Shown piece after piece: positions 1-63,126 of a stretch of DNA of 64,000 bases (position 1 is the first letter of the stretch; every line of letters begins with the position of its first letter). Below the pieces are notes generated by a model that ran no database searches, was not told the origin of the DNA, and saw only the letters and a program-made list of their open reading frames with translations. A program made the translations under genes and the position numbers. Origin of the DNA: a bacterium (lineage in GTDB: Bacteria; Omnitrophota; Gorgyraeia; Aquiviventales; Aquiviventaceae); assembly GCA_036396895.1 (NCBI GenBank), contig DASWKB010000024.1, positions 2,115 through 66,114 of the forward strand. The letters are read 5' to 3'.

Positions 1-60
1 AATACCGAGTGAAAGTCGTCAAACACTATCGTGCGTGAGCACAACTCGAGCGTTGGCGAG

Positions 61-81
61 AGGCTGGAAGCTGGAATGATC
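61..81. repeat. hepta-2 tandem array (GCTGGAN orientation) with GATC-side cap
   Basis: Read directly: aggctgga-agctgga-atgatc. Confidence 0.6.
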
Positions 82-92
82 GGTGGCGACGA

Positions 93-128
93 TGCCAAAT
101 TCGGAATTCGGAATTGGGAATGCGGAAT
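93..128. repeat. hepta-1 tandem array (CGGAATN) with TGCCAAAT cap
   Basis: tgccaaat-tcggaat-tcggaat-tgggaat-gcggaat; identical 36-mer recurs at 6427-6462. Confidence 0.85.
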
Positions 129-130
129 GG

Positions 131-220
131 GTTATGTGCTGTCACGGGAACGCAGGTTTGTGCCGCAAAGGAAGATGACGCCTGTGCCTGTGTGGAGAGC
201 CTCCATTGTTGACGATTCAC
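131..220 (-). repeat. IGR-core element, alpha subfamily
   Basis: Reverse complement of the copy at 4435-4530. Ends in ccattgttgacgattca, the complement of the TGAATCGTCAACAA signature. Confidence 0.8.
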
Positions 221-234
221 AATTCACGGGAGGC

Positions 235-265
235 GAGAAGCTGAAAGCTGGAGGCTGGAACGATC
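235..265. repeat. hepta-2 tandem array
   Basis: gagaagctg-aaagctg-gaggctg-gaacgatc. Confidence 0.7.
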
Positions 266-330
266 ACGTGCCGCACGAACGATCAAGCGTGCATCTGTGC
301 ATAAGTGCAGGGCTATTGTTATTGACGACC
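262..330 (-). repeat. IGR-core element, beta subfamily (diverged)
   Basis: gatcacgtgccgcacgaacgatcaagcgtgcatctgtgcataagtgcag...ttgttattgacgacc aligns by eye to the reverse complement of the beta copies at 2721, 4322 and 7021. Confidence 0.7.
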
Positions 331-370
331 GTCATGCTCCGGCATCCTGCCCGTGTTCAGTCTCTTCAAT

Positions 371-424
371 AATCCGCAATCGGAAATCCGCAATCCGCAA
401 TTCACGATCCAGCCTCCAGCTTCC
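371..424. repeat. hepta-6 array (AATCCGC) followed by hepta-2 units
   Basis: aatccgc-aatcgga-aatccgc-aatccgc-aattcac-gat-ccagcct-ccagctt. The same composite recurs at 6813-6866. Confidence 0.8.
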
Positions 425-471
425 CGGTCGCCATCAACGGGCCAGGTATATCGGAAATTGGCTGGAAGGGC

Positions 472-2564: not shown

Positions 2565-2601
2565 TGCCAATTTCGGAGTTCGGAATTGGAAATGCGGAAT
2601 T
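2565..2601. repeat. hepta-1 tandem array with TGCCAAT cap
   Basis: tgccaattt-cggagtt-cggaatt-ggaaatg-cggaatt. Confidence 0.8.
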
Positions 2602-4423: not shown

Positions 4424-4434
4424 CCCGTGAATTA

Positions 4435-4530
4435 TGAATCGTCAACAACGGAGGCTCTCCACACAGGCACAGGCGTCATCTTCCTTTGCGGCACAAACCT
4501 GCGTTCCCGTGAGAGCACATAACCCATTCC
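4435..4530 (+). repeat. IGR-core element, alpha subfamily
   Basis: tgaatcgtcaacaacggaggctctccacacaggcacaggcgtcatcttcctttgcggcacaaacctgcgttcccgtgagagcacataacccattcc. Confidence 0.85.
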
Positions 4531-4548
4531 GAATTCCGAAGTTGGCAT
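4526..4548. repeat. hepta-1 array (ATTCCGN orientation) with cap
   Basis: attccga-attccga-agttggcat. Confidence 0.7.
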
Positions 4549-4567
4549 CTATCCAATCTCGCACTTC

Positions 4568-5752: not shown

Positions 5753-5759
5753 GCGGACG

Positions 5760-6077: not shown

Positions 6078-6142
6078 CCTGCTATTGTCGGGCAAGCTCA
6101 CCACTCACGCCAGCATAAAATCCGGGCCGGAGGCCAACGGCC

Positions 6143-6177
6143 GCGTAACGTGAAACGCGTAACGCGTAACGTGATCG
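6143..6177. repeat. hepta-3 tandem array
   Basis: gcgtaac-gtgaaac-gcgtaac-gcgtaac-gtgatcg. Confidence 0.8.
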
Positions 6178-6180
6178 CGT

Positions 6181-6285
6181 GTCTTGTGCCGTGACGGACG
6201 ATGAGGATTGTACAGTGACGACAGATGACGCCTGTGCATTTGTGCAACGCCTTGTTTGTTGGTGCCCGAACTGAATGAGTCATAA
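6181..6285 (-). repeat. IGR-core element, degenerate copy
   Basis: gtcttgtgccgtgacgg...agatgacgcctgtgcatttgtgcaacgccttgtttgttgg...ctgaatgagtca keeps blocks of the alpha core. Confidence 0.5.
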
Positions 6286-6340
6286 GTGAGAGGCTTGAAG
6301 GTAGCGCCTGGAATGCGGGGGCGGATCATGCTTGGAACAT

Positions 6341-6368
6341 GGGACGGGGGACAGGGGACGTGGACGGA
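6341..6368. repeat. hepta-4 tandem array
   Basis: gggacgg-gggacag-gggacgt-ggacgga. Confidence 0.8.
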
Positions 6369-6384
6369 ATCAGAGATCCGTGGC

Positions 6385-6415
6385 GAGAAGCTGGAGGCTG
6401 GAAGCTGGAATGATC
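6385..6415. repeat. hepta-2 tandem array
   Basis: gagaagctg-gaggctg-gaagctg-gaatgatc. Confidence 0.8.
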
Positions 6416-6426
6416 AGCCGCGACGA

Positions 6427-6462
6427 TGCCAAATTCGGAATTCGGAATTGGGAATGCGGAAT
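6427..6462. repeat. hepta-1 tandem array with TGCCAAAT cap
   Basis: Identical to 93-128. Confidence 0.85.
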
Positions 6463-6464
6463 TG

Positions 6465-6549
6465 GTCTTGTGCTGTCACGGGAACGCAGGCTTGTGCCGT
6501 CATAGAAAGTCACGAGTGTGCATAAGCGAAACGTCTTCGTTGTTGACGG
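6465..6549 (-). repeat. IGR-core element, alpha-like
   Basis: gtcttgtgctgtcacgggaacgcaggcttgtgccgtcatagaaagtcacgagtgtgcataagcgaaacgtcttcgttgttgacgg. Confidence 0.75.
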
Positions 6550-6583
6550 GTCGGGAACCGGTCGGAAGCTGGAGCGTGAAATC

Positions 6584-6696
6584 GAATCGTCAACAACGGA
6601 GGCTCTGCACACATGCACAATCGTCATCGTGCATCGCGGCACACACCTGCTCTCCCGGTACGGCACAAGACCCATTCCGCATTCCGCACCATGCTC
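6584..6696 (+). repeat. IGR-core element, gamma subfamily
   Basis: 113 nt identical by hand comparison to 7135-7247. Starts gaatcgtcaacaacggaggctctgcacacatgcacaatcgtcatcgtgcatcgcggcac. Confidence 0.9.
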
Positions 6697-6812
6697 GCGC
6701 GTGACACGTTACGCGGCATGTCATGCTCATCACGCTCCAGTTCCGTATGCCTCCCCTGTCCCAAGCGTGGCTCGCCTATGACTCCGATCCTCCCGGTCTG
6801 CTCAAGTCTTTC

Positions 6813-6866
6813 AATCCGCAATCCGAAATCCGCAACCCGCAATTCACACGGAGCCTCCAGCTTCAG
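6813..6866. repeat. hepta-6 array followed by hepta-2 units
   Basis: aatccgc-aatccga-aatccgc-aacccgc-aattcac...gagcctccagcttcag. Paralogous to 371-424. Confidence 0.8.
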
Positions 6867-6896
6867 TCCTGCAACACGACACAACCCCTGACGCCG

Positions 6897-6960
6897 CCGT
6901 GACGCGTTTCGCGTTACGCGGGCCCGCAAGTCGGGGGTCCCCTCGGGGGCTGTCCCCCTT
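6897..6960. repeat. hepta-3 units followed by G5/C5-rich hepta-4-like palindromic stretch
   Basis: ccgtgacgcgtttcgcgttacgcgg...tcgggggtcccctcgggggctgtccccc. Confidence 0.6.
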
Positions 6961-6971
6961 GGACCAGACTA

Positions 6972-7011
6972 CTTCCAGCCTCCAGCCTCTAGCGTCCAGC
7001 TTCTCGCCTCC
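6972..7011. repeat. hepta-2 tandem array plus conserved linker
   Basis: cttccagcctccagcctctagcgtccagcttctcgcctcc. Confidence 0.8.
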
Positions 7012-7020
7012 CGTGATGTT

Positions 7021-7100
7021 TGAATCGTCAACAACGAAGGCGCTGCACTCATGCACAGATGCACGCGTGATCGTTCGTGCGGCACGTGATCATTCCAGCC
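7021..7100 (+). repeat. IGR-core element, beta subfamily
   Basis: tgaatcgtcaacaacgaaggcgctgcactcatgcacagatgcacgcgtgatcgttcgtgcggcacgtgatcattccagcc. Confidence 0.85.
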
Positions 7101-7124
7101 TCCAGCGTCCAGCTTCTCGCCTCC
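7091..7124. repeat. hepta-2 tandem array plus conserved linker
   Basis: cattccagcctccagcgtccagcttctcgcctcc. Confidence 0.8.
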
Positions 7125-7134
7125 CGTGATGTTT

Positions 7135-7247
7135 GAATCGTCAACAACGGAGGCTCTGCACACATGCACAATCGTCATCGTGCATCGCGGCACACACCTG
7201 CTCTCCCGGTACGGCACAAGACCCATTCCGCATTCCGCACCATGCTC
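7135..7247 (+). repeat. IGR-core element, gamma subfamily
   Basis: 113 nt identical to 6584-6696. Confidence 0.9.
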
Positions 7248-7281
7248 TCACGTTACACGTTCCACGTTTCACGTGACACGC
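7247..7281. repeat. hepta-3 tandem array directly downstream of the priA stop
   Basis: ctcacgtta-cacgttc-cacgttt-cacgtga-cacgc. Confidence 0.8.
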
Positions 7282-7282
7282 A

Positions 7283-9319
7283 TTATGAAGGATCAACATC
7301 CACCGCGACAGGAAGCCCCGCGAACCGGCGCCCCGGCTGCAAGGTGTGCCGGATGAGCTCCACGATGGGCTCGACGCTCTTGTGCTTGAGGAGCACACAC
7401 ATCCGGTACGTGCGGCGCATCTTCGGGATGCGGTGCGGGGCCGGACCGATGATCTCGATCTTCGAACCCGCCGCGCGCTTCCGGAGCGCGTCCGCCAGGT
7501 CAGCGGCGGTCTGCTCCGCGCGGTCCTGCTTCCCGGCGCGGACGGTCAGCTCCGCCAGATGGCAGAACGGCGGGAGGCGAAGGCGCCGGCGCATCTTGAG
7601 TTCCTCGCGGTAAAAGCCCACGTAATCGTGCTTGGCCGCCGCGGTGATGGCGTAATGGTCCGGATGGAATGTCTGCACGAGCACCCGGCCCGGTTGCGCT
7701 CCGCGGCCGGCCCGCCCGGCCACCTGCGCCAGGAGATCGAAGGTGCGCTCCCCCGCCCTGAAATCCGGCAGATTGAGCGCGGTGTCGGCCGAAATGACGC
7801 CGACCAGCGTGACCTCGGGGAAGTGCCAGCCCTTCGCGATCATCTGCGTGCCGACCAGGACCCCGATCTTGCCCGACTTCATCCCTTCGTAGAACTCCTC
7901 GTGGCTGGTCCGGGCCTTCGTGGTGTCGGTGTCCATGCGCGCGATCGACGCGCCCGGGAACACCCGGTGCAGTTCCGACTCGACGCGCTCGGTGCCGGTA
8001 CCCCGGAATCTGACGGCGCCCTTCTTGCAGTGCGCGCACACCTCGGGCGGCGGCTCGCGGTGGTTGCAGTAATGACAGACCATCCCGCCCTCGGCGGCGT
8101 GGTAGATGAGCGGGACCGAGCAGCGGGGACACAGCGCAGAGGCTCCGCACTGCAGGCACTGCGCGATCCGGGCGAACCCTCGGCGGTTAAGCAGGAGCAG
8201 CGCCTGCTCGCCTCGCCCCGTCACCTGCTCGAGCGCCAGCTGGAGCCTGAGCGAGAGCGGAGCGCTTCGCCTGCCGCGGCCGGCCTCGCGCATGTCGACG
8301 ATGGAGACCTTCGGCATCGCGCGCCCCTCGACCCGCTCCGGAAGCTCAAGCAGCATGCCCCCCCGCCGGCGCGCGGCGTAGGCGCTTTCCATCGAAGGGG
8401 TCGCGCTGCCGAGGATGACGAGCGCGCCGGTCACGCGCGCCCGGGCGAGGGCCACGTCGCGGGCGTGATAGCGCGGAGCGTCCTCCTGTTTGTAGGTCTG
8501 CTCGTGCTCCTCATCCAGCACGATGACCCCGAGCCGGCGGATCGGGGTGAAGACGGCGGAACGGGCGCCGATCACGATCCGGGAACGCCCGCAGCTCATG
8601 GCCTGCCAGGCGGCCGACCGCTGGCGCGCAGTCATGCGGCTGTGCCAGACGGCGACCGTGTCGCCGAAACAGCCCCGGAACCGCTCGATCGTCTGGGGCG
8701 TGAGCGCGATTTCCGGTATCAGGCAGATCGCTCCCTGCCCCCGCCTGAGCGCCCGGTCGATCACGCGAAGGTACAGCTCCGTTTTTCCCGATCCGGTCAC
8801 GCCGTGGAGCAGCGCCGCGCGCGCGCGCCCGGCCTCGAGCGCCGCGAAGAGACGTCCGAGCGCCAGGTCCTGGTGGGATGTCAGCACGTGGGTGAAGGGC
8901 GCGACGGCGCCCCGGACCGGCTCATCCGGCGCGTCAGGCTCCGCCGGACCGACGCGAAGCGCCGCCGGGACCATGACGCCGAAGGCTTCGCCGAGACTGC
9001 ACCCGTAGTAGCCCGAGAGCCACTCGGCCAGCCGCCAGCGGTCCTCCGACACGACGGGCTGCGGATCGAGGACGCGCCGGATGGCCTTCAGGCCGGGAAA
9101 CGGAGCAACCCCGCTGCGCCGGAGGATGAAGCCCTGGCGTTCCCTGCGGCCGAACGGGGCGGCCACGCGCGTGCCCGGCACGGCGGCCTGCTGCAATGCC
9201 CCTGGCACGGCATAGTGGAACGGGTGCTCGATCGGCAGGCTGAACACGACTTCGGCGTACGGGAGCGCGGCGTCCGCCGTGGCGTCATCAATGCGCACTC
9301 GCCTTGGAGCAGAACTCAT
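7283..9319 (-). CDS. priA: primosomal protein N' (replication restart helicase PriA)
   Basis: GVTGSGKTELYL Walker A, LDEEHE, and paired CxxC zinc motifs (CLQCG, CPRC, CHYC, CAHC). ATG at 9319. The track ORF starts at a TTG at 9346 inside the hepta-1 cap. Confidence 0.9.
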   Translation of the reverse strand: MSSAPRRVRIDDATADAALPYAEVVFSLPIEHPFHYAVPGALQQAAVPGTRVAAPFGRRERQGFILRRSGVAPFPGLKAIRRVLDPQPVVSEDRWRLAEWLSGYYGCSLGEAFGVMVPAALRVGPAEPDAPDEPVRGAVAPFTHVLTSHQDLALGRLFAALEAGRARAALLHGVTGSGKTELYLRVIDRALRRGQGAICLIPEIALTPQTIERFRGCFGDTVAVWHSRMTARQRSAAWQAMSCGRSRIVIGARSAVFTPIRRLGVIVLDEEHEQTYKQEDAPRYHARDVALARARVTGALVILGSATPSMESAYAARRRGGMLLELPERVEGRAMPKVSIVDMREAGRGRRSAPLSLRLQLALEQVTGRGEQALLLLNRRGFARIAQCLQCGASALCPRCSVPLIYHAAEGGMVCHYCNHREPPPEVCAHCKKGAVRFRGTGTERVESELHRVFPGASIARMDTDTTKARTSHEEFYEGMKSGKIGVLVGTQMIAKGWHFPEVTLVGVISADTALNLPDFRAGERTFDLLAQVAGRAGRGAQPGRVLVQTFHPDHYAITAAAKHDYVGFYREELKMRRRLRLPPFCHLAELTVRAGKQDRAEQTAADLADALRKRAAGSKIEIIGPAPHRIPKMRRTYRMCVLLKHKSVEPIVELIRHTLQPGRRFAGLPVAVDVDPS

Positions 9320-9340
9320 CCGCCGCCCACCAGCACATGA

Positions 9341-9428
9341 TGCCAAATGCGGAATTCGGAATCGGGAATTCGGAATCGCGCGTTCGGGCCTTCATTCCGC
9401 ATTCCGAATTCCGCATTCCGAATTTGGC
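9341..9428. repeat. inverted hepta-1 arrays forming a long imperfect hairpin
   Basis: Left arm tgccaaatgcggaattcggaatcgggaattcggaat, loop of about 17 nt, right arm attccgcattccgaattccgcattccgaatttggc. Mismatches fall at the variable heptad position. Confidence 0.85.
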
Positions 9429-9481
9429 TTCACTCCCCACTCTCCTCGAGACGCTCCACACTTGGCATAGCGTCGCGTGAC

Positions 9482-9509
9482 GTGCCCCCTGCCCCCCGCC
9501 CCTTGCCCC
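9482..9509. repeat. hepta-4 tandem array (NNGCCCC orientation)
   Basis: gtgcccc-ctgcccc-ccgcccc-ttgcccc. Confidence 0.85.
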
Positions 9510-9557
9510 AGACCTGACGGATAGACGAATGAGACGAATTGGGTGACATCGGGAGTG

Positions 9558-10241
9558 TCAACGCGTTCGGGTCTTCGTCGGCGGTTCCCGCCCGAGCACC
9601 TTGAGAACGACCTGCAGATCCTCCCACGCCTGCGGCTTGGCGGCCGGATTGCGCAGGAGATAGGCGGGATGGTACGTCGGCACAAGCGGCACGCCTTCAT
9701 ACTCCTTGACCGAGCCGCGGACCCGGCTGATGGCGATGTGCGGCCCGAAGAGCGCCTTCACCGCCACCGCCCCCAGCGTGCAAATGACCTTCGGCCGGAT
9801 GATCTCGATCTGCTCCAGCAGGTACGGCAGGCACGCGTCGACTTCGGACGGCTCCGGCGTGCGGTTGTTCGGCGGACGGTCTTTCAGGATGTTGCAGATG
9901 TAGACCTGCTCGCGATGCAGTCCCATGGCTTCGATCATCTTCGTCAGCAGCTTGCCCGCGGCCCCGACGAACGGTTTGCCCTGCAGGTCCTCGTCCCTCC
10001 CGGGAGCTTCCCCGATGAACATCAGCTCCGCATCCTGGCTGCCATCGCTGACGACCGCGTGCGTGCGGGTCCTGTACAGGGGGCACTTCCGGCACTGCTC
10101 GACCGCCCGCGCCAGCGCCGCAAGCCGCTCGCTTCGACCTCCGCGATCACCTCCGCGCGGCAGTGCCTCCAGCCCCATCAGCTTCAATCCCTCGGCGTGG
10201 AGCCGCGCCGCCTTCGCGAGTGCTCGTCGCTCGTCATTCAT
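9558..10241 (-). CDS. family-4 uracil-DNA glycosylase
   Basis: [39 protein letters not shown]. Start placed at MNDERR (10241). The longer track ORF (to 10394) translates heptad repeats at its N-terminus. Confidence 0.85.
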
Positions 10242-10346
10242 GGGTTCACCCTGCGATTGGGGCAACGGGCGGGAGGCACGGGACATGAACCGTAAGTCCA
10301 TTGATCGTGGACCGTGTAACGTGTCCTGTAGGAACACATGCACATA

Positions 10347-10381
10347 GGTTCCAGGTTCCAGCTTCCACCTTCCAGCATCCG
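10347..10381. repeat. hepta-2-like tandem array
   Basis: ggttcca-ggttcca-gcttcca-ccttcca-gcatccg. Confidence 0.8.
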
Positions 10382-10391
10382 ACCGAAACCC

Positions 10392-10423
10392 CACGTTACA
10401 CGATACACGTTACACGTTACGCG
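10392..10423. repeat. hepta-3 tandem array spanning the stop codon of the 10410 gene
   Basis: cacgtta-cacgata-cacgtta-cacgtta-cgcg. Confidence 0.85.
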
Positions 10424-11576
10424 GCGTGAGAAGCGGTTCGACGACCTGCTCGATGATATCGTTCGCCGCGTTCGGCCGGCCGGCGTCGCGCGCGCCCGTT
10501 CTGAGCTTCGCCATGAGCTCGGGCGAAGAGGCGCAGTGCCGCACGAACTCCGCGGCCGCCTCCGGGCCCAGCGCGATCACTCCCGCCCCCTGCCGCGCGA
10601 CGTACCGCGCATTCGATTCCTCCTGCCCAGGAATCGCGTGATAGAAGACCAGGGGCAGCTCGCACGCCAGCGCCTCGGCCACCGTCAGGCCACCCGCCTT
10701 GGCCACGGCCAGATCCGCCGTTCCCATCAAGTCCAGCATATTGTGCACGAATCCGAAGACCCTCGCGGGCATCGGCGCCGCCGCAGCCGCCGCCTCAAGG
10801 CGCGCCGTCGTGCGGGCGTCATCCCCGCAGACGACGATGAGCTGCAGCCGCCCTGGCACCATGGCCTCGAGTCTCAACAGCCGCTCGACGAGGTCTGCGA
10901 ACCGGCCGACGGTGGTGCCGCCGCTCGTGACCAGCACGGTCAGCCGGTCGTGCGCAAGACCGAGCGATTCCCTGAGCGCCCGCCGGCGCGTCTCGGTGAG
11001 CGGCGCCGCGGCGACCGTCGGAATCCCAAGCGCCGCCACGCGCTCGCGCGGCACGCCGAGCTCCACGCAACGGTCCGCCCCCGCCTGATTCGCCACGACC
11101 ACCGCGTCCGGACGGGCGCCGAGCCACAGCCGGTGCGGATGCCAGTCGGTGACGACGACCACGACCGGCGCCCGCAGCCGCCCCGCGGTCCGCGCAGCCC
11201 CCAAGAGGTCGGCCGGGAAAAAGTGCGTCAGGACCGCCACGTCCGGCTGCTCCGCGAGCAGGACGGCCGGCATGCGGTATCCGATCAGCCGGTTCCAGGC
11301 GCGCCGGAACGGCTGGATGCACCGGAACACCGCCGCCTGATCCAGCGCGCGATACGAAAACTTCCAGCACATCGGCAGCGCGCGCACCAGGAACAAGTAC
11401 AGGCGGGCGTACCCGCTCCGATACCAGCCCGGAGTCCATGCCAGGGCGTCCAGACAGCGAACGTCGGCGTCCGGCCAGCGCCGCCGCGCCGCGTCCGCCA
11501 GCGCTTCAGCCGCCCGGCGATGTCCGGCCCCGGCCGTCGCGTACGCAATCAGAATCCGAGGTCTTGATGAATCCAT
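10410..11576 (-). CDS. GT28-type glycosyltransferase (MGDG synthase / UgtP-like diacylglycerol glycosyltransferase)
   Basis: 388 aa. N-terminal ILIAYATAGAGHRRAAEAL and C-terminal AVAKAGGLTVAEALACELPLVFYHAIPGQEESNA are typical of the MGDG_synth plus Glyco_tran_28_C architecture. Confidence 0.8.
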   Translation of the reverse strand: MDSSRPRILIAYATAGAGHRRAAEALADAARRRWPDADVRCLDALAWTPGWYRSGYARLYLFLVRALPMCWKFSYRALDQAAVFRCIQPFRRAWNRLIGYRMPAVLLAEQPDVAVLTHFFPADLLGAARTAGRLRAPVVVVVTDWHPHRLWLGARPDAVVVANQAGADRCVELGVPRERVAALGIPTVAAAPLTETRRRALRESLGLAHDRLTVLVTSGGTTVGRFADLVERLLRLEAMVPGRLQLIVVCGDDARTTARLEAAAAAAPMPARVFGFVHNMLDLMGTADLAVAKAGGLTVAEALACELPLVFYHAIPGQEESNARYVARQGAGVIALGPEAAAEFVRHCASSPELMAKLRTGARDAGRPNAANDIIEQVVEPLLTPRNV

Positions 11577-11585
11577 CCGCCATCG

Positions 11586-11664
11586 GGAAGCTTGAAGCTA
11601 GAAGCTCGATGATGGAACGAGCGATCCGATCATTCCAGCTTCAAGCTTCCAGCCTCCAGCTTCC
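11586..11664. repeat. inverted hepta-2 arrays with a perfect 14-bp stem
   Basis: ggaagcttgaagct (11586-11599) is the exact reverse complement of agcttcaagcttcc (11637-11650). Further CCAGCNT units run to 11664. Confidence 0.8.
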
Positions 11665-11673
11665 GCCCAGAGG

Positions 11674-12384
11674 TCAATTCGGCTTCTCAAGCCGCCGGAA
11701 CGCGTCATAGTAGCCGCTCAGCTTGGCCCGCATCAGAAGGGGATGCGCGTCGCGGTCGGTCACTTTGATGCGGCGCAGCGCGTAGCGGTCCAGCGGGCCT
11801 TGCAAGGCGACGCGGTTGGTCGTGCACGCGCCGCGGTAGCCAGCCGATTTGGCGATCTCCTGAATTTTCGAGGAGTAGCCGCCGATCGGGTAGCTCAGCC
11901 AGTCGGCCGCCATCCCGATCCGCTCCTCGATCGCGCGCTTGGAGCCGGCCAGCTCTTCCTCGAGCCGGGACTCCTCCAGGATCGGCAGATACTGATGATG
12001 CATGGTGTGGCTGCCGATGGTCACGCCGCCGTTCGCCATCGCGCTCACCTGCTCCCAGCTCATGAACCCCGGCAGCCCGATCTCCCCGGAGGAGATGAAC
12101 ACGGTCGCGGGCAGATTGAAGCGCTTCAGAATCGGCCATGCGATGCTCCAGGTCTCCTCATAGCCGTCATCGAAGGTGATGACCGCGCTCCGGCGCGGCA
12201 TCGCGCCGTCGCGTTTCACGAGCTCGCCCAGCTCACCCAGCGGCAGAACCCGGAGGCCGCTGCGCGCGAGACTCCCCATCTGCTGTTCGAACGCCTCCGC
12301 AGAGACGGTCGGCACGTGATCCCCCCGCATCCCGCCGACCCTGTGATAGGCCAGGATCGGGACGTAGTACCTCCACTGGTTCAT
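11674..12384 (-). CDS. polysaccharide deacetylase (CE4 family)
   Basis: ITFDDGYEETWSIAWPILKRFNLPATVF and GSHTMHHQYL NodB-type motifs. GGGAGG Shine-Dalgarno 9 nt upstream of the ATG. Confidence 0.85.
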   Translation of the reverse strand: MNQWRYYVPILAYHRVGGMRGDHVPTVSAEAFEQQMGSLARSGLRVLPLGELGELVKRDGAMPRRSAVITFDDGYEETWSIAWPILKRFNLPATVFISSGEIGLPGFMSWEQVSAMANGGVTIGSHTMHHQYLPILEESRLEEELAGSKRAIEERIGMAADWLSYPIGGYSSKIQEIAKSAGYRGACTTNRVALQGPLDRYALRRIKVTDRDAHPLLMRAKLSGYYDAFRRLEKPN

Positions 12385-12429
12385 ATCGAGTCACCTCCCA
12401 TGCACGCTTCCCCTACCATCCGCCTGGTC

Positions 12430-22066: not shown

Positions 22067-22150
22067 TGCCAAATGCGGAATCCGGAATTGGGAATTCGGA
22101 ATTATTGCGGACCGTGGAGATTCCGCATTCCGCATTCCGCATTCCGAATT
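22067..22150. repeat. inverted hepta-1 arrays forming a hairpin
   Basis: tgccaaatgcggaatccggaattgggaattcggaatt, loop of about 16 nt, attccgcattccgcattccgcattccgaatt. Confidence 0.85.
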
Positions 22151-23010
22151 ACCGTATTCTTCAGAGGATTGGCGAGGCCGAGACGCGATTCGGCCAGTTC
22201 CAGCAGCCGCCTCAGCCGGTGGGCGTACGTGTGGCGCTCCAGAACGAGCGAGGAGCCCGCGCGGGCGATCTCCGTGCGCGCCGGCTCATCCGCCAGATAC
22301 CGATCGATGACCTCGAAGAGCTCCTCGGGCCGCCGGTACGTGACCAGGTGCTCACCGGGCTCCAGGCCCAGCGCTTCCATCTCCCCGTTGTCCAGCGCGT
22401 TCGTGACCAGGAGCGCGCCCGCGGCCATCACTTCGAACATCCGCATGTTGACGTCATTGGCGATGGAAAAGTTGAAGCCGACCCTGGCCCGCCCGTAAAT
22501 GTGCGCCAGGTCCGTGTGGGGAGCTCGCCCAATCCGGCTGGACGGATAGCGCTCGCGCAAGGCCTGCAGGATGAATTTGCGCGGCACGCCGCCGTCATTG
22601 CCGACGAACGCGACGTCCCAGACGGCACCCTGCGGCGGCGCGGCGTGCACCCGGGGGTCGCAGGCCACCGGAAGCCACTCGGCCCCTGGCAGCCGTTCCG
22701 CCCCCGAGAGATGGCACGACAGAAGGAGATCGTAGCGTCCCGCCGTCCGGCGGATCTTCCTGAAACTGTGCGGCAGGTGCGTATCAATTGCGTAGAACAC
22801 CGCGGGTCGCAGCATCTTCGGCAGCGGCACCTCGTAATCGTCCCCATGGTCCACCCGAAGATACAGATCGTACTCTGGAGGCGGAGGAATGCGCGCCGCC
22901 TCGCTCAGGCTCCAATGATCATGCGCCACGCCCAGTGCGTCGCAGGCGCGCTCGAGATACCCGCCGGTGGTGTCCGGCCTCGTCGTGTTGAAAATGAGCG
23001 CAATCTTCAT
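22102..23010 (-). CDS. CgeB-family / Glyco_trans_1_2-type glycosyltransferase-like protein
   Basis: MKIALIF N-terminus. VGFNFSIANDVNMRMFEVMAAGALLVTN resembles the CgeB family. Alternative ATGs at 23019 and 23025. The last ~12 codons translate the hepta-1 hairpin (IRNAECGMRN). Confidence 0.6.
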   Translation of the reverse strand: MKIALIFNTTRPDTTGGYLERACDALGVAHDHWSLSEAARIPPPPEYDLYLRVDHGDDYEVPLPKMLRPAVFYAIDTHLPHSFRKIRRTAGRYDLLLSCHLSGAERLPGAEWLPVACDPRVHAAPPQGAVWDVAFVGNDGGVPRKFILQALRERYPSSRIGRAPHTDLAHIYGRARVGFNFSIANDVNMRMFEVMAAGALLVTNALDNGEMEALGLEPGEHLVTYRRPEELFEVIDRYLADEPARTEIARAGSSLVLERHTYAHRLRRLLELAESRLGLANPLKNTVIRNAECGMRNLHGPQ

Positions 23011-23889: not shown

Positions 23890-23979
23890 TGCCAAATTCG
23901 AAATTGGGAGTTCGGAATGCGAAATTGCATGTGCGGATCTGATATTCCGCGTTCCGCATTCCGCATTCCGCATTTGGCA
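23890..23979. repeat. inverted hepta-1 arrays forming a hairpin
   Basis: tgccaaattcgaaattgggagttcggaatgcgaaat, loop of about 18 nt, attccgcgttccgcattccgcattccgcatttggca. Confidence 0.85.
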
Positions 23980-24003
23980 AGGTTCATGCTCGGCTCACGT
24001 CAC

Positions 24004-24024
24004 GCGCCCCTCGCCCCGTGCCCC
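24004..24024. repeat. hepta-4 tandem array (NNGCCCC orientation)
   Basis: gcgcccc-tcgcccc-gtgcccc, immediately downstream of the DegT-family stop. Confidence 0.75.
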
Positions 24025-24026
24025 GT

Positions 24027-25202
24027 TCATGCCCGAGACGCCTGCTTGCGTTTGAGGCGCACGTCGCGCGACGGCGCCAACCCGTAGATCTCAAGCAGCT
24101 CGCCCGTCTGCTCCACCACTTCTGCGACCTGCTCGCGCGTCAGTTGTGGATGCAATGGAAGGGCTAAAATCTCATCCGCGATCCGCTCGGCGGCGGGAAG
24201 GTCGCCCCGCTTCAGCGGCTGGCCCTCGTACATGGAGCCCAGATGGATGGGCCGAGGATAATGCGTCATCGCCTGAATCCCTCGCGCGCGCAAATCGGCG
24301 AGCATCCGGTCGCGCTCCGGCACGCGGACGCTGAAGAGGTGATAGACATGCTCGCGCCCCGGCAGCTCCGCCGGCAACCCGACGCGCTCCAGCCCCTCCG
24401 CGGCGAACGAGTCCCGGTACCACCCCGCGCGCTCGCGCCGGGCGGCGTTCCAGGGTTGGAGGTATTTCAATTTGACCAGCAGGATCGCCGCCTGGAGCTC
24501 ATCGAGCCGGCTGTTCCGGCCGTATCCGGAATAGGTCATCTTGTCCTTGGTGCCGTAGTTGCGAAGCAGGCCGAGCCGCTCGGCGACGCCGGGATCGCTG
24601 GTGACGATCGCGCCCCCGTCCCCGACCGCTCCCAGGTTCTTGGTCGGATAGAAGCTGAAGCAGCCCGCCTGGCCGAAGCTGCCCACCGGCCGCCCGCGAT
24701 AGCGCGCGCCGATCGCCTGCGCGCAGTCCTCGATCACCGCGAGTTTGTGCGCCTTCGCCAGCGCCAGCACGCCGTCGAGATCGCACGGCTGCCCGAAGAG
24801 GTGCACGGGGATGATCGCTCGCGTGCGCGAGGTCACGCGGCGCGCGGCATCCTCGAGGTCGATGCCGAAATCGTCCTCCCGCACGTCTGCGATCACGGGA
24901 ATCCCCCCGATCGTGGTCACTGCCAGCGGAGTAGCCATGAACGTCAGGGCCGGCACGATCACCTCGTCCCCCCGGCCCACGCCGCACGCGCGAAGCGCCA
25001 GCTCAAGCGCATCCGTGCCGGAATTGACGCCGACGGCCATGTCGCAGTCGCAGCGCTCCGCCAGCGCCCGCTCGAACGCCTGGAGGTACTGCCCCAGGAT
25101 GTACTGCCCGCTCGCGAGGACCGTTTTCACGGCGCGGTCGATCTCGCGCTGGATCGAGCGATACTGCCCGGCCAGATCAATCAAGGGAATGTGATATTTC
25201 AT
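24027..25202 (-). CDS. DegT/DnrJ/EryC1/StrS-family PLP-dependent sugar aminotransferase
   Basis: IPLIDLAGQY, VNSGTDALELAL, FYPTKNLGA. Confidence 0.9.
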   Translation of the reverse strand: MKYHIPLIDLAGQYRSIQREIDRAVKTVLASGQYILGQYLQAFERALAERCDCDMAVGVNSGTDALELALRACGVGRGDEVIVPALTFMATPLAVTTIGGIPVIADVREDDFGIDLEDAARRVTSRTRAIIPVHLFGQPCDLDGVLALAKAHKLAVIEDCAQAIGARYRGRPVGSFGQAGCFSFYPTKNLGAVGDGGAIVTSDPGVAERLGLLRNYGTKDKMTYSGYGRNSRLDELQAAILLVKLKYLQPWNAARRERAGWYRDSFAAEGLERVGLPAELPGREHVYHLFSVRVPERDRMLADLRARGIQAMTHYPRPIHLGSMYEGQPLKRGDLPAAERIADEILALPLHPQLTREQVAEVVEQTGELLEIYGLAPSRDVRLKRKQASRA

Positions 25203-25218
25203 GGCTCCTCACTACGCC

Positions 25219-25354
25219 GCGTCACGTGAAACGCGTAACGCGCCTTCATGTTGGACATGAGCCTCGCCCCACCGTTCCGGCCATCTGACTCGTCTTCAAT
25301 CATGATCGCGCTCGTTTGCTTCCCACGTTTCGCGTTACGCGTTACGCGTGACGC
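25219..25354. repeat. inverted hepta-3 arms around an ~80-nt loop
   Basis: gcgtcacgtgaaacgcgtaacgcg ... cacgtttcgcgttacgcgttacgcgtgacgc. The right arm spans the stop of the 25335 gene. Confidence 0.8.
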
Positions 25355-26447
25355 GATCCGCGGTTGTCGCCATGACCTCGTCGCAGGCCGCCAGGACATC
25401 CTCCACGCTGAGCTCCCTGAGGCACGCCCGGTCGTACGGACACGGCGGGAACCGGAACCGGTGATAGCACGGCCGGCAAGGCAAGCCCTGGATGTGCACC
25501 GCGCGGCGGCTCGGGCCGGGCGGATACGGCCCGTACACCCTGGGGTCGACCGGCCCGAAGATCGCCACGGTCGGGACCGACTGCGTGACCGCCAGGTGAA
25601 CCGGACCGCCGTCGTTCGCGAGCACGAGGCGACACCGGCTCAAGATCGCCACGAACTCCCCGAGCGTCGTGCGGCCGCTCGCATCGAGGGCCCCCTCGCC
25701 GATGGCGCGCGTCATGGCCGCGCAGACCGTGCGGTCGGCCTCTTCGCCCAGCACCAGCACCGCATAGCCGCGCCGCGCGAATTCCCTCCCGGCCGCGGCG
25801 AAATGCGCTTGGGGCCAGCGCCGGTACTGCGCCTCGGCCCCCCAGCTCACTCCGCCCGCGGGCATGAGCGCCACGCACGGCTTCCCCTCCGGAGTGCCCA
25901 TCTCTCGCAGCCGCGCATCCGCCCGCCGCCGATCCTCATCGGTGAGACTCAGCTCCATCCGCCGGTCGTCGAGCTTGAACCCCAGCGCCGCCATCAGCGA
26001 CGCGTGATGCTCAATCACGTGGCGGCCGTCGAAGCCCGCGATGCGCATCCGGCGCGTCAGAAACCGGCCGCGCCGCCGGTACGCGTAGCCCATCCGGCGA
26101 CGCACGCCCAGGAGCGACAGGATGAAGCTGTACTGCTCCACCAGCGACAGATCAAGCGCGAGATCGACGCGCGCGCGACGGATGCCGATGAGCAGGCGCC
26201 CCAGCGCGCCCAGCGCCGCGAGCGGACGCGACTTCCACAGCGCGTCCAGCTCGTCCTTTTCGTACACGAAGAGCTGATCAAGATGCGGATTGCGCCGGAG
26301 CACCGCTTCGGTCCGGCGATTGCAGAGGTAACTCAACCGCGCGCGGGGAAACGCCGCGCGCAGCGCCCGGATCACCGGCGTGGAGAACAGGACGTCGCCG
26401 ATCCCGAACGGGTTGATGATGAGAATGCTCGACACCGCCGAGGGCAT
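25335..26447 (-). CDS. GT9-family glycosyltransferase (heptosyltransferase-like)
   Basis: ILIINPFGIGDVLFSTPVIRAL and ANDGGPVHLAV. Confidence 0.85.
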   Translation of the reverse strand: MPSAVSSILIINPFGIGDVLFSTPVIRALRAAFPRARLSYLCNRRTEAVLRRNPHLDQLFVYEKDELDALWKSRPLAALGALGRLLIGIRRARVDLALDLSLVEQYSFILSLLGVRRRMGYAYRRRGRFLTRRMRIAGFDGRHVIEHHASLMAALGFKLDDRRMELSLTDEDRRRADARLREMGTPEGKPCVALMPAGGVSWGAEAQYRRWPQAHFAAAGREFARRGYAVLVLGEEADRTVCAAMTRAIGEGALDASGRTTLGEFVAILSRCRLVLANDGGPVHLAVTQSVPTVAIFGPVDPRVYGPYPPGPSRRAVHIQGLPCRPCYHRFRFPPCPYDRACLRELSVEDVLAACDEVMATTADRVTRNA

Positions 26448-63078: not shown

Positions 63079-63096
63079 TGAACGATTTCGAGCCAC

Positions 63097-63126
63097 ATGC
63101 GGAATTCGGAATGGGGAATGGGGAAT
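63097..63126. repeat. hepta-1-like tandem array
   Basis: tgcggaat-tcggaat-ggggaat-ggggaat-t. Confidence 0.75.

What the first reader, a model, noticed from the sequence alone, without database searches (positions are those of the whole stretch)
9341..9428. Hepta-1 arrays with a conserved TGCCAAAT cap form 35-nt-arm hairpins at gene junctions
Three loci share one design: 9341-9428, 22067-22150 and 23890-23979. Each has the cap TGCCAAAT, four or five CGGAATN units, a 16-18-nt non-repetitive loop, the complementary ATTCCGN units, and (at two of the three loci) ATTTGGCA closing the stem. Mismatches between the arms fall at the variable seventh position, so the stems are regularly bulged. All three sit between a stop codon and the next start in the same transcription direction. 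None is followed by a U-tract. The same cap also bounds the one-armed arrays at 93, 2565, 4548 and 6427.
Basis: seen in the sequence. Interest (0 to 1): 0.55.

Follow-up and report, generated by a model that had tools for sequence, protein, structure and literature searches.

The report
Dispersed GGAAT heptad-repeat palindromes
The three hairpins are real copies of an ~89-base palindromic repeat with four 7-base units per arm; it belongs to a larger set of heptamer-array repeats that fills the gaps between genes in this Omnitrophota genome, recurs in many bacterial phyla, and resembles Xanthomonas repeats whose function is still unknown.

Summary
Loci 9341-9429, 22067-22154 and 23890-23979 are copies of one design: TGCCAAAT, (KCGGAAT)4, a ~17-nt loop, (ATTCCGM)4, then ATTTGGCA. 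All genes lie on the minus strand. The RNA folds at -39 to -50 kcal/mol as 6-bp helices split by one free position.

They are not locus-specific regulators. They are one class of heptamer-array inverted repeats that fill nearly every intergenic spacer in this high-GC Omnitrophota contig. A syntenic relative has tight junctions and no heptamer arrays.

The same capped array occurs in Gemmatimonadota, Nitrospirota, NC10, Planctomycetota, Deltaproteobacteria and Chloroflexota. It is sometimes translated in frame inside ORFs.

Polarity is fixed: 24 hairpins run GGAAT-loop-ATTCC and none run the other way. Four units per arm is the mode. The variable position is statistically independent between arms. 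Single-unit deviations are almost never compensated. At one orthologous comF site, however, the whole unit switches in both arms together (GGAAT, GGATT, GGAAC).

Best reading: a REP/BIME- or MITE-like dispersed element whose heptads are read by an unknown trans-acting factor, with hairpin formation as a consequence. It is not an intrinsic terminator. The closest published analogue is the Xanthomonas GGGAATC inverted heptamer repeats, whose function is unresolved.

The parts
9341..9429 (.). Hairpin h1, 89 nt: cap TGCCAAAT, 4 x KCGGAAT, 17-nt loop, 4 x ATTCCGM, ATTTGGCT. It lies 129 nt after the UDG stop (9558) and 21 nt before the PriA ATG (9319), both on the minus strand.
22067..22154 (.). Hairpin h2: cap, 4 units, 17-nt loop, 4 units plus one degenerate unit, no closing cap. 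The glycosyltransferase ORF (22102-23265, minus) is read through the 5' arm and stops in the loop. The likely epimerase start is at ~21987/21981.
23890..23979 (.). Hairpin h3, 90 nt: cap, 4 degenerate units, 18-nt loop, 4 units, exact ATTTGGCA. It lies 47 nt after the DegT stop (24027) and 9 nt before the ATG at 23880 of the hexapeptide transferase.
9430..9514 (-). Modules attached to h1: a degenerate ACTCCNC stretch ending in ACTTGGCA (9460-9467), then CGTGACG, then (GCCCCNN)4. On the coding strand the last reads (GGGGCNN)4 and is G-quadruplex-prone. The same module order occurs in relatives from metagenome Ga0214471.
23990..24030 (-). Modules attached to h3: CACGTCACG plus (GCCCCNN)3-4, directly after the DegT stop.
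93..128 (+). Capped GGAAT array, the left arm of a long-loop palindrome. Its partner is the AATCCGC array 369-401. Both are nested inside GAAGCTG (61-77) and CCAGCTTC (408-425) arms.
2565..2600 (+). GGAAT array with a variant cap (TGCCAATT), the first module of composite repeat copy E2.
4526..4547 (-). GGAAT array with a variant cap (TGCCAACT) on the minus strand, composite repeat copy E4.
6427..6462 (+). Capped GGAAT array. Its partners are ATTCCGCATTCCGC at 6673-6688 (inverted repeat I1, 103-nt arms) and the AATCCGC array at 6808-6843.
63092..63126 (+). Uncapped GGAAT array (GCCACAT in place of the cap) in the spacer after the epimerase stop at 63290.
6105..7282 (.). A 1.18-kb gene-free spacer between PriA and Tmemb_14, made of nested heptamer arrays and ~100-nt conserved 'bodies'. 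It is bracketed by a TAACGTG array at the PriA stop (7283-7244) and the inverse array (6176-6140).
11577..11673 (.). A second-class hairpin (GAAGCTG / CAGCTTC) that fills the whole spacer between the polysaccharide deacetylase and MGDG synthase genes.
25218..25365 (.). A third-class inverted pair (TAACGCG / CGCGTTA) that brackets the GT9-DegT spacer. The upstream gene's stop codon lies inside the array.

Best explanation
Each locus is one copy of a dispersed, non-coding, directional palindromic repeat of about 89 bp: 5'-TG-CCAAAT, (KCGGAAT)4, ~17 nt, (ATTCCGM)4, ATTTGG-CA-3'.

It is one class of a modular system of heptanucleotide-array inverted repeats, mosaic in the manner of REP/BIME elements and end-structured like a MITE. 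This system has colonised the spacers of a long co-directional housekeeping and LPS gene array in a high-GC Omnitrophota genome.

Each arm is an array of four sites that match a heptad consensus, with a terminal 8-bp cap. The arms are complementary because the same heptad is laid out in inverted orientation.

The element is most likely copied, maintained and homogenised by an unidentified trans-acting factor that reads the heptads and the cap. Candidates are a hairpin- or end-specific transposase or recombinase, or another heptad-binding protein.

As a consequence, the polycistronic RNA (and single-stranded DNA) folds into a -39 to -50 kcal/mol stem of 6-bp helices. That stem can shield upstream RNA from 3' exonucleases or dampen coupling between cistrons. 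It is not an intrinsic terminator.

Shown: the anatomy, copy number, spread across phyla, absence from orthologous junctions, fixed polarity, the four-unit mode, independence of the variable position between arms, the dialect switch, and in-frame copies inside ORFs.

Inferred: that the element is mobile, that a trans-acting reader exists, and any effect on RNA.
For: Repeat family.
- The motif counts are far above chance. Period-7 arrays number 40, against 1-23 for periods 5, 6, 8 and 9.
- Genome collection: 34 loci carry cap plus two units. I calculate about 4 expected by chance. At least 18 of them carry the ATTCC arm. They come from genomes of 41-72% GC in many phyla.
- Metagenomes gave more than 108 loci. 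One relative (Ga0214471) carries many 70-90-nt symmetric copies.

Insertion-like behaviour.
- The synteny MGDG-UDG-PriA-def-fmt-GalT is conserved. Spacers are 0-64 nt with no heptamers in L036, against 238-1178 nt packed with arrays in the window.
- One MAG carries the same idiosyncratic hairpin at two unrelated loci.
- Local copies are 87-96% identical.

End structure.
- The right arm, which was not used to select the loci, ends in ATTTGGCA with at most one mismatch in 25 of 50 cases. Four units and loops of 15-18 nt are the modes.
- Polarity is 24:0.

Heptad consensus rather than pair-by-pair stem selection.
- The K position matches its partner in 69 of 137 unit pairs, 50.4% against 50.0% expected under independence.
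- Only 2 of 183 core deviations are compensated.
- In nine close comF orthologues, all 7 arm substitutions break pairs.
- Across deeper comF orthologues, both arms switch together between GGAAT, GGATT and GGAAC. Eight of 31 pairs change on both sides, and 0 of 500 shuffles reach this. The encoded peptide is the least conserved part of the protein.

Not a terminator.
- There is no U-tract.
- Copies sit in frame inside ComF and a 721-aa TPR protein and are retained across a clade.

Precedent.
- Xanthomonas GGGAATC repeats have a mode of four units, 70-75 inverted pairs, are 89-93% intergenic, lie mostly between co-oriented ORFs, and are transcribed (PMC4692102).
Against: - No transposase, integrase or HUH-type gene was found among the 39 window proteins scanned. 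These cover 472-42359 and 61774-63997. The stretch 42.4-61.7 kb was not scanned.
- No longer element bounded by the caps was found outside the window. The three cap-to-cap pairs within the window span resident host genes, so none looks like an autonomous element.
- No target-site duplication flanks the symmetric copies (by inspection).
- At least seven heptamer classes coexist in 64 kb. That is many for sequence-specific mobilisation.
- Loops and K patterns differ in almost every copy. This is unlike recently transposed MITEs.
- No close relative was available to show a filled site against an empty site with exact boundaries.
- Long retention of the comF copy could instead mean a host function.
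Confidence: 0.45

Rival explanations
1. A host-selected intercistronic RNA hairpin. Once transcribed, the stem-loop acts as a 3'-exonuclease barrier, an RNase III-type processing site or a coupling modulator between cistrons of long operons. The heptamer build is only the way the stem grew.
For: - The folds are strong.
- 14 of 19 copies in the window and its relatives lie between co-directional genes, and none lies between convergent genes.
- Nearly every spacer in the window is bracketed by an inverted pair whose arms touch the stop codon and the next start region.
- Relative L035 has inverted heptamer arrays of a different sequence at the same junctions.
- Stem complementarity survives a change of unit at the comF site.
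- The Xanthomonas repeats are transcribed.
Against: - Sense and antisense folds are equally stable, so there is no G-U asymmetry.
- A fixed 24:0 polarity is not needed for stability.
- The variable position shows no excess of pairing.
- Only 2 of 183 deviations are compensated.
- The same element sits inside ORFs.
- Distances to the stop (0-129 nt) and to the start (9-79 nt) are not fixed.
- Syntenic relative L036 manages without any such hairpin.
Confidence: 0.2
2. Double-stranded DNA binding arrays for a protein that polymerises with a 7-bp register, as the ribbon-helix-helix omega/ParB protein does on pSM19035 heptad parS sites. The arrays would serve in nucleoid organisation, insulation, partition or uptake. 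Hairpin potential would be incidental.
For: - The register is 7 bp, with five or six fixed positions and one position restricted to G/T.
- Four units is the mode in two-armed and one-armed arrays, in bacteria and in 61 IMG/VR contigs.
- pSM19035 parS needs at least four contiguous heptads, in either orientation (PMC9499535).
- The unit is conserved in genomes from 41% to 72% GC.
- Whole-dialect switches in both arms are what co-evolution with a reader predicts.
Against: - At least seven unrelated heptamer classes in one window would need several readers.
- No candidate protein was identified.
- The density of arrays and their placement inside ORFs are unusual for operators or centromeres.
- The conserved terminal cap and the fixed outward polarity look more like element ends.
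Confidence: 0.2
3. By-products of replication slippage (long simple-sequence repeats). Heptamers would be favoured by polymerase geometry. The arrays would have no function, or would act as G-quadruplex or phase-variation tracts.
For: - Heptanucleotide SSRs are the most abundant long SSR class in many bacteria (Mrazek 2007, as summarised in PMC4679880).
- One copy lost exactly 21 nt, which is three units (L122).
- The neighbouring (GGGGCNN)4 arrays are G4-capable.
- The window is a surface-polysaccharide cluster.
Against: - The unit number is fixed at four, the cap is conserved and polarity is 24:0.
- Unit counts do not vary among orthologues that differ by about 10% in the flanks.
- Units are not identical, which makes them poor slippage substrates.
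- The GGAAT units carry only GG runs.
- The arrays also flank priA, def, fmt and comF, which are not contingency genes.
Confidence: 0.08
4. Rho-independent terminators without a U-tract, or integron attC-like recombination sites at cassette boundaries.
For: The loci are long imperfect palindromes at the 3' ends of co-oriented genes, and all genes in the window share one orientation.
Against: - There is no U-tract.
- Copies lie inside ORFs.
- The stems are AT-richer than the genome.
- The flanking genes are conserved syntenic housekeeping genes, not cassettes.
- The cap does not match the R''/R' GTTRRRY core that, to my knowledge, defines attC sites. No integrase was found among the 39 proteins scanned.
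Confidence: 0.04

Closest known systems
Xanthomonas GGGAATC (GGGANTN) heptameric repeats; also Nostoc GGGGAYT (Rehm et al. 2015, PMC4692102)
   Same: - The heptamer contains GGAAT and the mode is four units.
- Most arrays occur as convergent inverted pairs able to form stem-loops.
- About 90% are intergenic, mainly between co-oriented ORFs and near the upstream ORF's 3' end.
- They are under-represented between divergent genes.
- They are transcribed, and no function has been found.
   Different: - Here the unit is KCGGAAT, so most units carry GG rather than GGG and are poor G4 formers.
- There is a conserved terminal 8-mer cap with TG...CA ends, and a loop close to 17 nt.
- The arrays sit in a mosaic with other heptamer classes.
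- They are spread over many phyla and include in-frame copies inside ORFs.
- Whether Xanthomonas repeats have a cap or a fixed polarity could not be tested with these collections.
REP / BIME elements and their RAYT transposases (E. coli, Pseudomonas, Stenotrophomonas)
   Same: - Short imperfect palindromes, high in copy number and extragenic.
- A conserved terminal tag.
- Mosaic clusters with other motifs.
- Lineage-specific sequence variants.
- No target-site duplication.
- Known RNA-level side effects such as mRNA stabilisation and polarity.
   Different: - The arms are tandem heptamers, 36 nt rather than about 15.
- The tag is TGCCAAAT, not GTAG or CGTC.
- No RAYT was seen.
- Several classes coexist.
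- Some copies sit inside ORFs.
MITEs whose ends carry subterminal repeats that bind the transposase
   Same: - Terminal inverted repeats with TG...CA termini.
- Internal direct repeats in each end.
- A short variable core.
- Fixed end polarity.
- Multiple copies per genome.
   Different: - No target-site duplication.
- No related autonomous element was found.
- The internal sequence is not conserved between copies.
Rickettsia palindromic elements (RPE)
   Same: Palindromic repeats that can sit in frame inside protein-coding genes and are then inherited with the gene. The ComF and TPR-protein cases here behave this way.
   Different: - No sequence relation.
- RPEs are not built from heptamer arrays.
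- In this window only h2 touches an ORF, where it supplies the C-terminal tail and the stop.
Cyanobacterial STRR, Beggiatoaceae TAACTGA and other heptanucleotide LSSRs (Mazel 1990; Mrazek 2007; MacGregor 2015, PMC4679880)
   Same: - Tandem heptanucleotide arrays, mostly intergenic.
- Several unit types per genome.
- A patchy distribution across phyla that suggests horizontal spread.
- Function unknown.
   Different: - Those are mostly direct arrays of variable length placed upstream of start codons.
- Here the arrays have four units, carry a cap, and are arranged as inverted pairs of fixed polarity.
pSM19035 parS heptad arrays bound by the omega (RHH ParB) protein (PMC9499535)
   Same: A 7-bp register, arrays in direct and inverted orientation, and at least four contiguous heptads required for activity. 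It is a worked example of how a protein reads heptad arrays.
   Different: - The heptad is different (WATCACW).
- There are a few sites on a plasmid, not hundreds on a chromosome.
- No omega/delta homologues were identified here.
- This is an analogy of mechanism only.

Membership tests
Heptameric SSR inverted repeats of the Xanthomonas GGGAATC type | Tandem heptamer units with a conserved G-rich core and one or two variable positions | tested here: met
   The unit is K-C-GGAAT. The core is near-invariant and K is G in 59% and T in 39% of cases.
Heptameric SSR inverted repeats of the Xanthomonas GGGAATC type | Preference for four units per array | tested here: met
   Four units is the mode in 23 of 38 hairpins, with the rest at three under a strict core rule, and in most capped copies.
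Heptameric SSR inverted repeats of the Xanthomonas GGGAATC type | Frequent convergent inverted pairs, intergenic, mainly between co-oriented ORFs | tested here: met
   24 strict inverted pairs. 14 of 19 copies lie between co-directional genes. This compares with PMC4692102.
Heptameric SSR inverted repeats of the Xanthomonas GGGAATC type | Four G3 or longer tracts, giving G-quadruplex capacity | tested here: not met
   Most units are CGGAAT, a GG run only. Only occasional units are TGGGAAT or CGGGAAT. The adjacent GGGGC arrays do meet the criterion.
REP / BIME | Short imperfect palindrome, repeated many times, extragenic | tested here: inconclusive
   The element is palindromic, repeated and mostly intergenic. 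However, it is 70-90 nt long with heptamer arms, and the genome-wide copy number is unknown because only a 64-kb window and scattered contigs were available.
REP / BIME | Conserved GTAG or CGTC tetranucleotide tag at one end | tested here: not met
   The terminal motif is (R)TGCCAAAT.
REP / BIME | A cognate RAYT (Y1 HUH transposase) in the genome | not testable with these tools
   None was found among 39 window proteins. The rest of the genome is not available.
MITE | Terminal inverted repeats | tested here: met
   Symmetric TGCCAAAT...ATTTGGCA ends occur in the window (h3, and h1 with one mismatch) and in 25 of 50 capped copies.
MITE | Target-site duplication flanking the element | tested here: not met
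   Inspection of the flanks of the symmetric copies shows no direct repeat, only a weak R...Y extension of the palindrome.
MITE | A related autonomous element with the same ends | tested here: not met
   Outside the window, no cap pair 300-7000 nt apart was found in any fetched locus. The three such pairs in the window span resident host genes and do not look like autonomous elements. The search space was small.
Intrinsic (Rho-independent) terminator | A GC-rich stem-loop immediately followed by a U-tract | tested here: not met
   No T-run follows any of the three on either strand. The terminator-like scan, run only on 1-12600, listed no site at h1. h2 and h3 lie outside that scan.
Integron attC site | R''/L''-L'/R' cores (RYYYAAC / GTTRRRY) at the 3' end of mobile cassettes next to intI/attI | tested here: not met
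   The cap does not match the core motifs, which I take from established knowledge of attC sites. The flanking genes are syntenic housekeeping genes. No integrase was seen among the proteins scanned.
Known structured RNA (Rfam) | A match to any Rfam 15 covariance model | tested here: not met
   No match at gathering thresholds over the whole window. Only a chance-level miRNA hit at E = 0.4 in 1-12600.
Rickettsia-palindromic-element-like in-frame coding insertions | A palindromic repeat inserted in frame within an ORF, with the host protein's domains intact on both sides | tested here: met
   In the L001 ComF-like ORF, DZR_2 (8-63) and Pribosyltran (212-245) flank a 78-nt hairpin in one frame. 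The insert is retained in all 120 best homologues. This was met in other genomes, not in this window.

The most novel reading that the evidence does not exclude
The capped GGAAT palindrome may be the visible footprint of an unrecognised machinery, present in many phyla, that reads heptads. The machinery would write, copy or renew four-unit heptad arrays in a fixed outward-to-inward polarity. It would build nested palindromes at gene boundaries and tolerate in-frame residence inside genes. It would co-evolve with its sites, which would produce lineage 'dialects' (GGAAT, GGATT, GGAAC, GGAGT) that switch in both arms at once. Candidates are a new hairpin- or end-specific ssDNA transposase or recombinase, or a templated end-addition or repair process.
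Probability: 0.25. Interest if true: 0.85.

Novelty: new variant of a known kind. Interest (0 to 1): 0.6.

Why it matters
Heptanucleotide repeats are the most over-represented long simple repeats in many bacteria. Their best-studied examples (Xanthomonas, Nostoc, Beggiatoaceae) still have no known function or origin.

This locus adds constraints that any explanation must meet:
- a defined element of about 89 bp with capped TG...CA ends;
- exactly four units per arm;
- invariant polarity;
- arms that follow a heptad consensus independently, yet change dialect together;
- spread across distant phyla and into viral contigs;
- stable in-frame residence in genes.

These features turn a vague 'SSR' phenomenon into a testable hypothesis: a trans-acting reader that can be sought by phylogenetic profiling and pull-down.

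In practice these elements inflate intergenic DNA. They create false N- and C-terminal extensions in gene calls, as at h2, UDG, GT2 and the hexapeptide transferase here. They also place very stable hairpins inside operons.

Tried and rejected
- **Rfam.** The gathering search over the whole window and the E-value search over 1-12600 found no family.
- **Source contig.** Exact-protein look-ups for the window's own proteins returned nothing on record. No close relative was found: the best PriA match is 63% identical. A filled-site against empty-site comparison at the three loci was therefore impossible.
- **Synteny with Ga0214471.** tblastn of window proteins against all fetched loci found no Ga0214471 contig syntenic with the hairpin junctions.
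- **Avoidance of pairing at the variable position.** A first impression from five copies suggested it. It was rejected on 137 unit pairs, with 50.4% matched against 50.0% expected.
- **Stepwise compensatory evolution of the stem.** Rejected for close orthologues and for within-genome copies. Only whole-dialect switches keep complementarity.
- **Autonomous element.** No cap-to-cap pair 0.3-7 kb apart was found in any fetched locus. The three pairs in the window span resident host genes and are not candidate elements.
- **Transposase or integrase in the window.** None among the 39 proteins scanned.
- **BLAST of h1 against plasmids and phages.** It returned only a one-armed ATTCCGC array on the Ralstonia megaplasmid and one weak phage hit.
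- **Capped pattern in viral contigs.** Zero hits. Uncapped four-unit arrays do occur there.
- **Sigma-54 promoter reading of ATTTGGCA-N-TGC at h3.** Dropped. It points antisense to all genes and is absent at h1 and h2.
- **Literature searches for the unit sequences.** Nothing relevant was found.
Full report
**1. The observation**

All three loci exist as described.
- h1 (9341-9429) reads TGCCAAAT, then GCGGAAT TCGGAAT CGGGAAT TCGGAAT, then a 17-nt loop, then ATTCCGC ATTCCGA ATTCCGC ATTCCGA, then ATTTGGCT.
- h2 (22067-22154) has the cap, four units, a 17-nt loop and four to five units. It has no closing cap.
- h3 (23890-23979) has degenerate left units, an 18-nt loop and an exact closing ATTTGGCA.

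The motifs are far above chance. Exact TGCCAAAT occurs 6 times against 0.70 expected. GGAATNNGGAAT occurs 25 times against 0.02 expected.

As RNA of the coding strand the loci fold at -49.9, -38.8 and -39.7 kcal/mol (z = -4.4, -2.9, -3.5). In h1 the stem is a string of 6-bp helices with a 1x1 mismatch every seventh position. The antisense RNA and the single-stranded DNA fold about equally well. No U/T tract follows any of them.

**2. Context in the window**

The window is 68% G+C. By third-codon-position G+C, essentially every gene is on the minus strand.

The hairpins lie at three junctions:
- UDG to PriA;
- a glycosyltransferase to an NAD-epimerase;
- a DegT aminotransferase to a hexapeptide transferase.

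At h2 the upstream ORF is read through the 5' arm (...IRNAECGMRNLHGPQ*) and stops in the loop.

PriA homologues place the contig in high-GC Candidatus Omnitrophota. The nearest relatives are only 60-63% identical.

The gene order deacetylase, MGDG synthase, UDG, PriA, def, fmt, GalT, GalT is conserved in relatives L035 and L036. In L036 the spacers are 0-64 nt and contain no period-7 arrays. In the window the same spacers are 97-1178 nt and are filled with heptamer arrays.

L035 has inverted heptamer arrays at the same junctions, but with unrelated units (GAGTGRC, GGCTCRA, GCAGCGA). Their arms run into the coding ends.

**3. The three hairpins are one class of a larger system**

Period-7 arrays number 40 in the window, against 13, 23, 1 and 5 for periods 5, 6, 8 and 9. 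At least seven unit classes occur.

Read on the coding strand, almost every spacer longer than 90 nt is bracketed by an inverted pair, and further pairs are nested inside. Examples are TAACGYG...CRCGTTA, GAAGCTG...CAGCTTC and GTCCACA...TGTGGAC.

- Arrays 93-128 and 6427-6462 are the first module of a ~100-150-nt composite repeat present in six copies within 1-7300 (alignment A1).
- They pair with distant AATCCGC arrays (369-401, 6808-6843) inside outer GAAGCTG/CAGCTTC arms. A fold of 435..50 closes on these arrays (-137 kcal/mol, z = -2.45).
- The caps at 2565 and 4540-4547 each carry one mismatch.

h1 and h3 also carry the same right-hand modules: a degenerate ACTCCNC...ACTTGGCA stretch, CGTGACG, and a (GCCCCNN)n array. 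The same order recurs in relatives. The architecture is therefore mosaic, as in BIMEs.

**4. Distribution elsewhere**

The pattern cap plus two units (19 fixed bases) hits 34 loci in one-genome-per-species contigs. I calculate about 4 expected by chance.

At least 18 of these show the ATTCC arm after a short loop. They come from Gemmatimonadota, a 41%-GC Nitrospirota MAG (8 loci), NC10, Planctomycetota, Deltaproteobacteria, Chloroflexota and others.

In several phyla GCCAAAT is an in-register variant unit inside the array: AATGCGG AATGCCA AATGCGG AATGCGG AAT.

One sample (Ga0214471) holds a 67-70% GC relative with many symmetric 70-90-nt copies of exactly the window's design.

The capped pattern is absent from IMG/VR. 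Uncapped (GGAATNC)4 arrays occur in 61 viral contigs, mostly as single four-unit arrays.

A Deltaproteobacteria MAG carries the same idiosyncratic hairpin (GTGGAAT and TCTAC units, T-rich loop) at two unrelated loci. One of those copies sits inside an outer GGCGGGC...GCCCGCC stem. One orthologue has lost exactly 21 nt.

**5. Rules of the element**

- The arm that was not used to select the loci ends in ATTTGGCA (at most one mismatch) in 25 of 50 terminal-cap copies. The canonical form is 8 + 28 + ~17 + 28 + 8 nt with TG...CA termini.
- Four units and loops of 15-18 nt are the modes.
- Polarity is invariant. There are 24 distinct (GGAAT)n-loop-(ATTCC)n pairs and none of the opposite order, although both orders would fold equally well. 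The GAAGCTG and TAACGYG classes show the same kind of fixed polarity.
- No target-site duplication is visible.

**6. What is conserved**

The variable position is G or T in 98% of cases. It matches its partner on the other arm in 69 of 137 unit pairs, 50.4% against 50.0% expected under independence.

Of 183 core positions that deviate in one arm, 2 are compensated, 53 give G:T and 128 give plain mismatches.

In nine close orthologues of a Gemmatimonadota comF gene, all seven arm substitutions break pairs. The arms vary less than the loop or the coding flanks.

This comF copy is a 78-nt hairpin translated in frame between the zinc-ribbon and phosphoribosyltransferase parts of ComF. It is retained in all 120 best homologues, down to 78% identity. 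At protein level it is the most variable segment.

At DNA level, however, deeper orthologues carry GCGGAAT/ATTCCGC, GCGGATT/AATCCGC or GCGGAAC/GTTCCGC, changed in all units of both arms. This gives 8 of 31 pairs with changes on both sides. None of 500 shuffles reaches that number, and the slid controls give 0-2.

So each arm independently obeys a heptad consensus, and the consensus itself ('dialect') shifts as a whole. This is what co-evolution with a trans-acting reader, or renewal from other copies, predicts. It is not what pair-by-pair selection on a stem predicts.

**7. Interpretation**

The most economical reading is a dispersed element, REP/BIME-like and MITE-like. Its arms are arrays of four reader-binding heptads with a terminal cap. 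An unidentified factor would copy or homogenise it. Hairpin formation in RNA or single-stranded DNA follows from the inverted layout.

The hairpin is certainly strong enough to matter in a polycistronic transcript, as an exonuclease barrier or a decoupler of cistrons. That effect is inferred, not shown.

It is not an intrinsic terminator. There is no U-tract, and copies are maintained inside ORFs.

Rivals that remain open:
- a host-selected intercistronic RNA hairpin;
- dsDNA arrays for a protein with a 7-bp register. The pSM19035 omega/parS system needs at least four contiguous heptads (PMC9499535);
- plain slippage or G-quadruplex tracts;
- attC-like sites.

Evidence against the mobile-element reading:
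- no transposase among the 39 window proteins scanned;
- no candidate autonomous element;
- no TSD;
- many coexisting classes;
- copy-specific loops.

**8. Relation to what is known**

The closest published case is the GGGAATC heptameric repeat of Xanthomonas. It has 183-186 loci, a mode of four units and 70-75 convergent inverted pairs. It is 89-93% intergenic, lies mostly between co-oriented ORFs close to the upstream ORF, and is transcribed. The authors could assign no function (PMC4692102).

Cyanobacterial STRRs, the TAACTGA repeats of Beggiatoaceae (PMC4679880) and Mrazek's heptanucleotide LSSRs are the wider family.

Nothing in the searchable literature mentions the KCGGAAT unit or its cap. 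Rfam has no model.

I therefore class it as a new variant of a known but unexplained kind. The added value lies in the cap, the fixed polarity, the four-unit rule, the independence of the arms together with whole-dialect switching, the spread across phyla and into viral contigs, and the in-frame copies.

**9. Limits**

- Gene calls in relatives used a crude GC3 rule.
- Taxon labels are those of MAG records.
- The loci were found with a pattern that required the cap, so one-armed and uncapped forms are under-sampled.
- No transcript data and no close relative of the source genome were available.
- Window 42.4-61.7 kb was not scanned for protein families.

Noticed in passing
window 7244-7283, 10388-10428, 25318-25365, 41143-41177, 63247-63300: On the coding strand, TAACGYG heptamer arrays begin with CCGCG and sit on, or within 30 nt of, the stop codons of PriA, MGDG synthase, GT9, GT1 and an epimerase. 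In three cases the array supplies the TAA itself. Inverse CRCGTTA arrays lie just upstream of the next start (6140-6176, 10310-10330, 25218-25242). With at least three units, the array carries a stop in every frame. Three relatives in Ga0214471 show the same placement.
   Followed up: partly
window 9480-9509 and 23996-24030 (minus strand): (GGGGCNN)4 arrays on the coding strand lie directly after the UDG and DegT stops, next to hairpins h1 and h3. They are canonical G-quadruplex motifs. Similar G3-4 arrays occur at 6330-6364 and 41040-41068.
   Followed up: no
window 130-230, 270-360, 2600-2820, 4290-4510, 6470-6680, 7020-7220: Conserved ~75-100-nt 'bodies' lie between the arrays (…GTGCCGCA…TGTGCAT..GTGCAGAGCCTYCGTTGTTGACGATTCA). 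They occur in at least six copies in both orientations, 69-96% identical. There is no Rfam match and no sigma-70-like promoter match. They could be an sRNA gene, a MITE core or a protein-binding module.
   Followed up: partly
L001 5712-5794; L147 / L148 / L149 (comF orthologues): At one orthologous in-frame site, the heptamer 'dialect' differs between lineages (GGAAT, GGATT, GGAAC, and a mixed form with a deletion). Both arms change together. The second unit of the left arm is always the deviant one (GCCAAAT, GGCGATT, GCGGAAG).
   Followed up: yes
L014 366-2531 (-) and paralogues L006, L008, L019, L022, L027, L034 (Nitrospirota MAG JACQXD01): A family of membrane/TPR proteins in a 41%-GC genome carries the GGAAT hairpin in frame at the same position in each paralogue. 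The same ORF also contains several other translated heptamer hairpins, for example HTSCIMNRASCIVSQASCIM and NGSRITDYGSRIT.
   Followed up: partly
L035 7169-7250, 9139-9205, 9891-10054: An Omnitrophota relative has inverted heptamer arrays of unrelated sequence at the same gene junctions. Their arms reach into the 3' codons of UDG and MGDG synthase and into the first ~18 codons of PriA.
   Followed up: partly
window 4568-6104: Compared with the L036 synteny (PriA-def-fmt), an MFS transporter gene and a Tmemb_14 gene lie between PriA and def. They are flanked by the two largest repeat-filled spacers. This may be a repeat-associated insertion or rearrangement.
   Followed up: no
window 9558-10394, 19529-20692, 20866-22047, 23548-23973: The longest-ORF starts of UDG, GT2, the epimerase and the hexapeptide transferase run into heptamer arrays. 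Homologue alignments and domain positions show the true starts lie 20-50 codons downstream. These repeats inflate ORF calls.
   Followed up: partly
L152-L212 (IMG/VR contigs): Sixty-one viral contigs carry (GGAATNC)4 arrays. Most are exactly four units, single-armed, intergenic and close to gene starts. One phage group shares AAATTCGGAATTCGGAATGCGGAATTCGGAATTAAGGGG followed by a small hairpin. A few contigs hold longer runs of GGAATAC or GGAATCC.
   Followed up: partly
window 23975-23990 (+): TGGCAAGGTTCATGCT at the closing cap of h3 fits the sigma-54 -24/-12 spacing (GG-N10-GC). It points antisense to all genes and has no counterpart at h1 or h2. It is probably chance.
   Followed up: no
window 6125-6142 (-) and 62990-63090: A canonical terminator-like hairpin with a U-tract (GGCCGTTGGCCTCCGGCC CGGATTTTAT) lies just upstream of Tmemb_14. 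An unusually AT-rich stretch lies upstream of the gene that starts at 62966. Ordinary signals therefore seem to coexist with the heptamer arrays.
   Followed up: no
window 32778-34700 vs ~48800-49700: Paralogous asparagine-synthase-like genes, 77-79% identical over 56-57 nt seeds, lie within a long LPS and glycosyltransferase cluster. Genes from 26 to 62 kb overlap or abut, and almost no heptamer arrays occur there.
   Followed up: no
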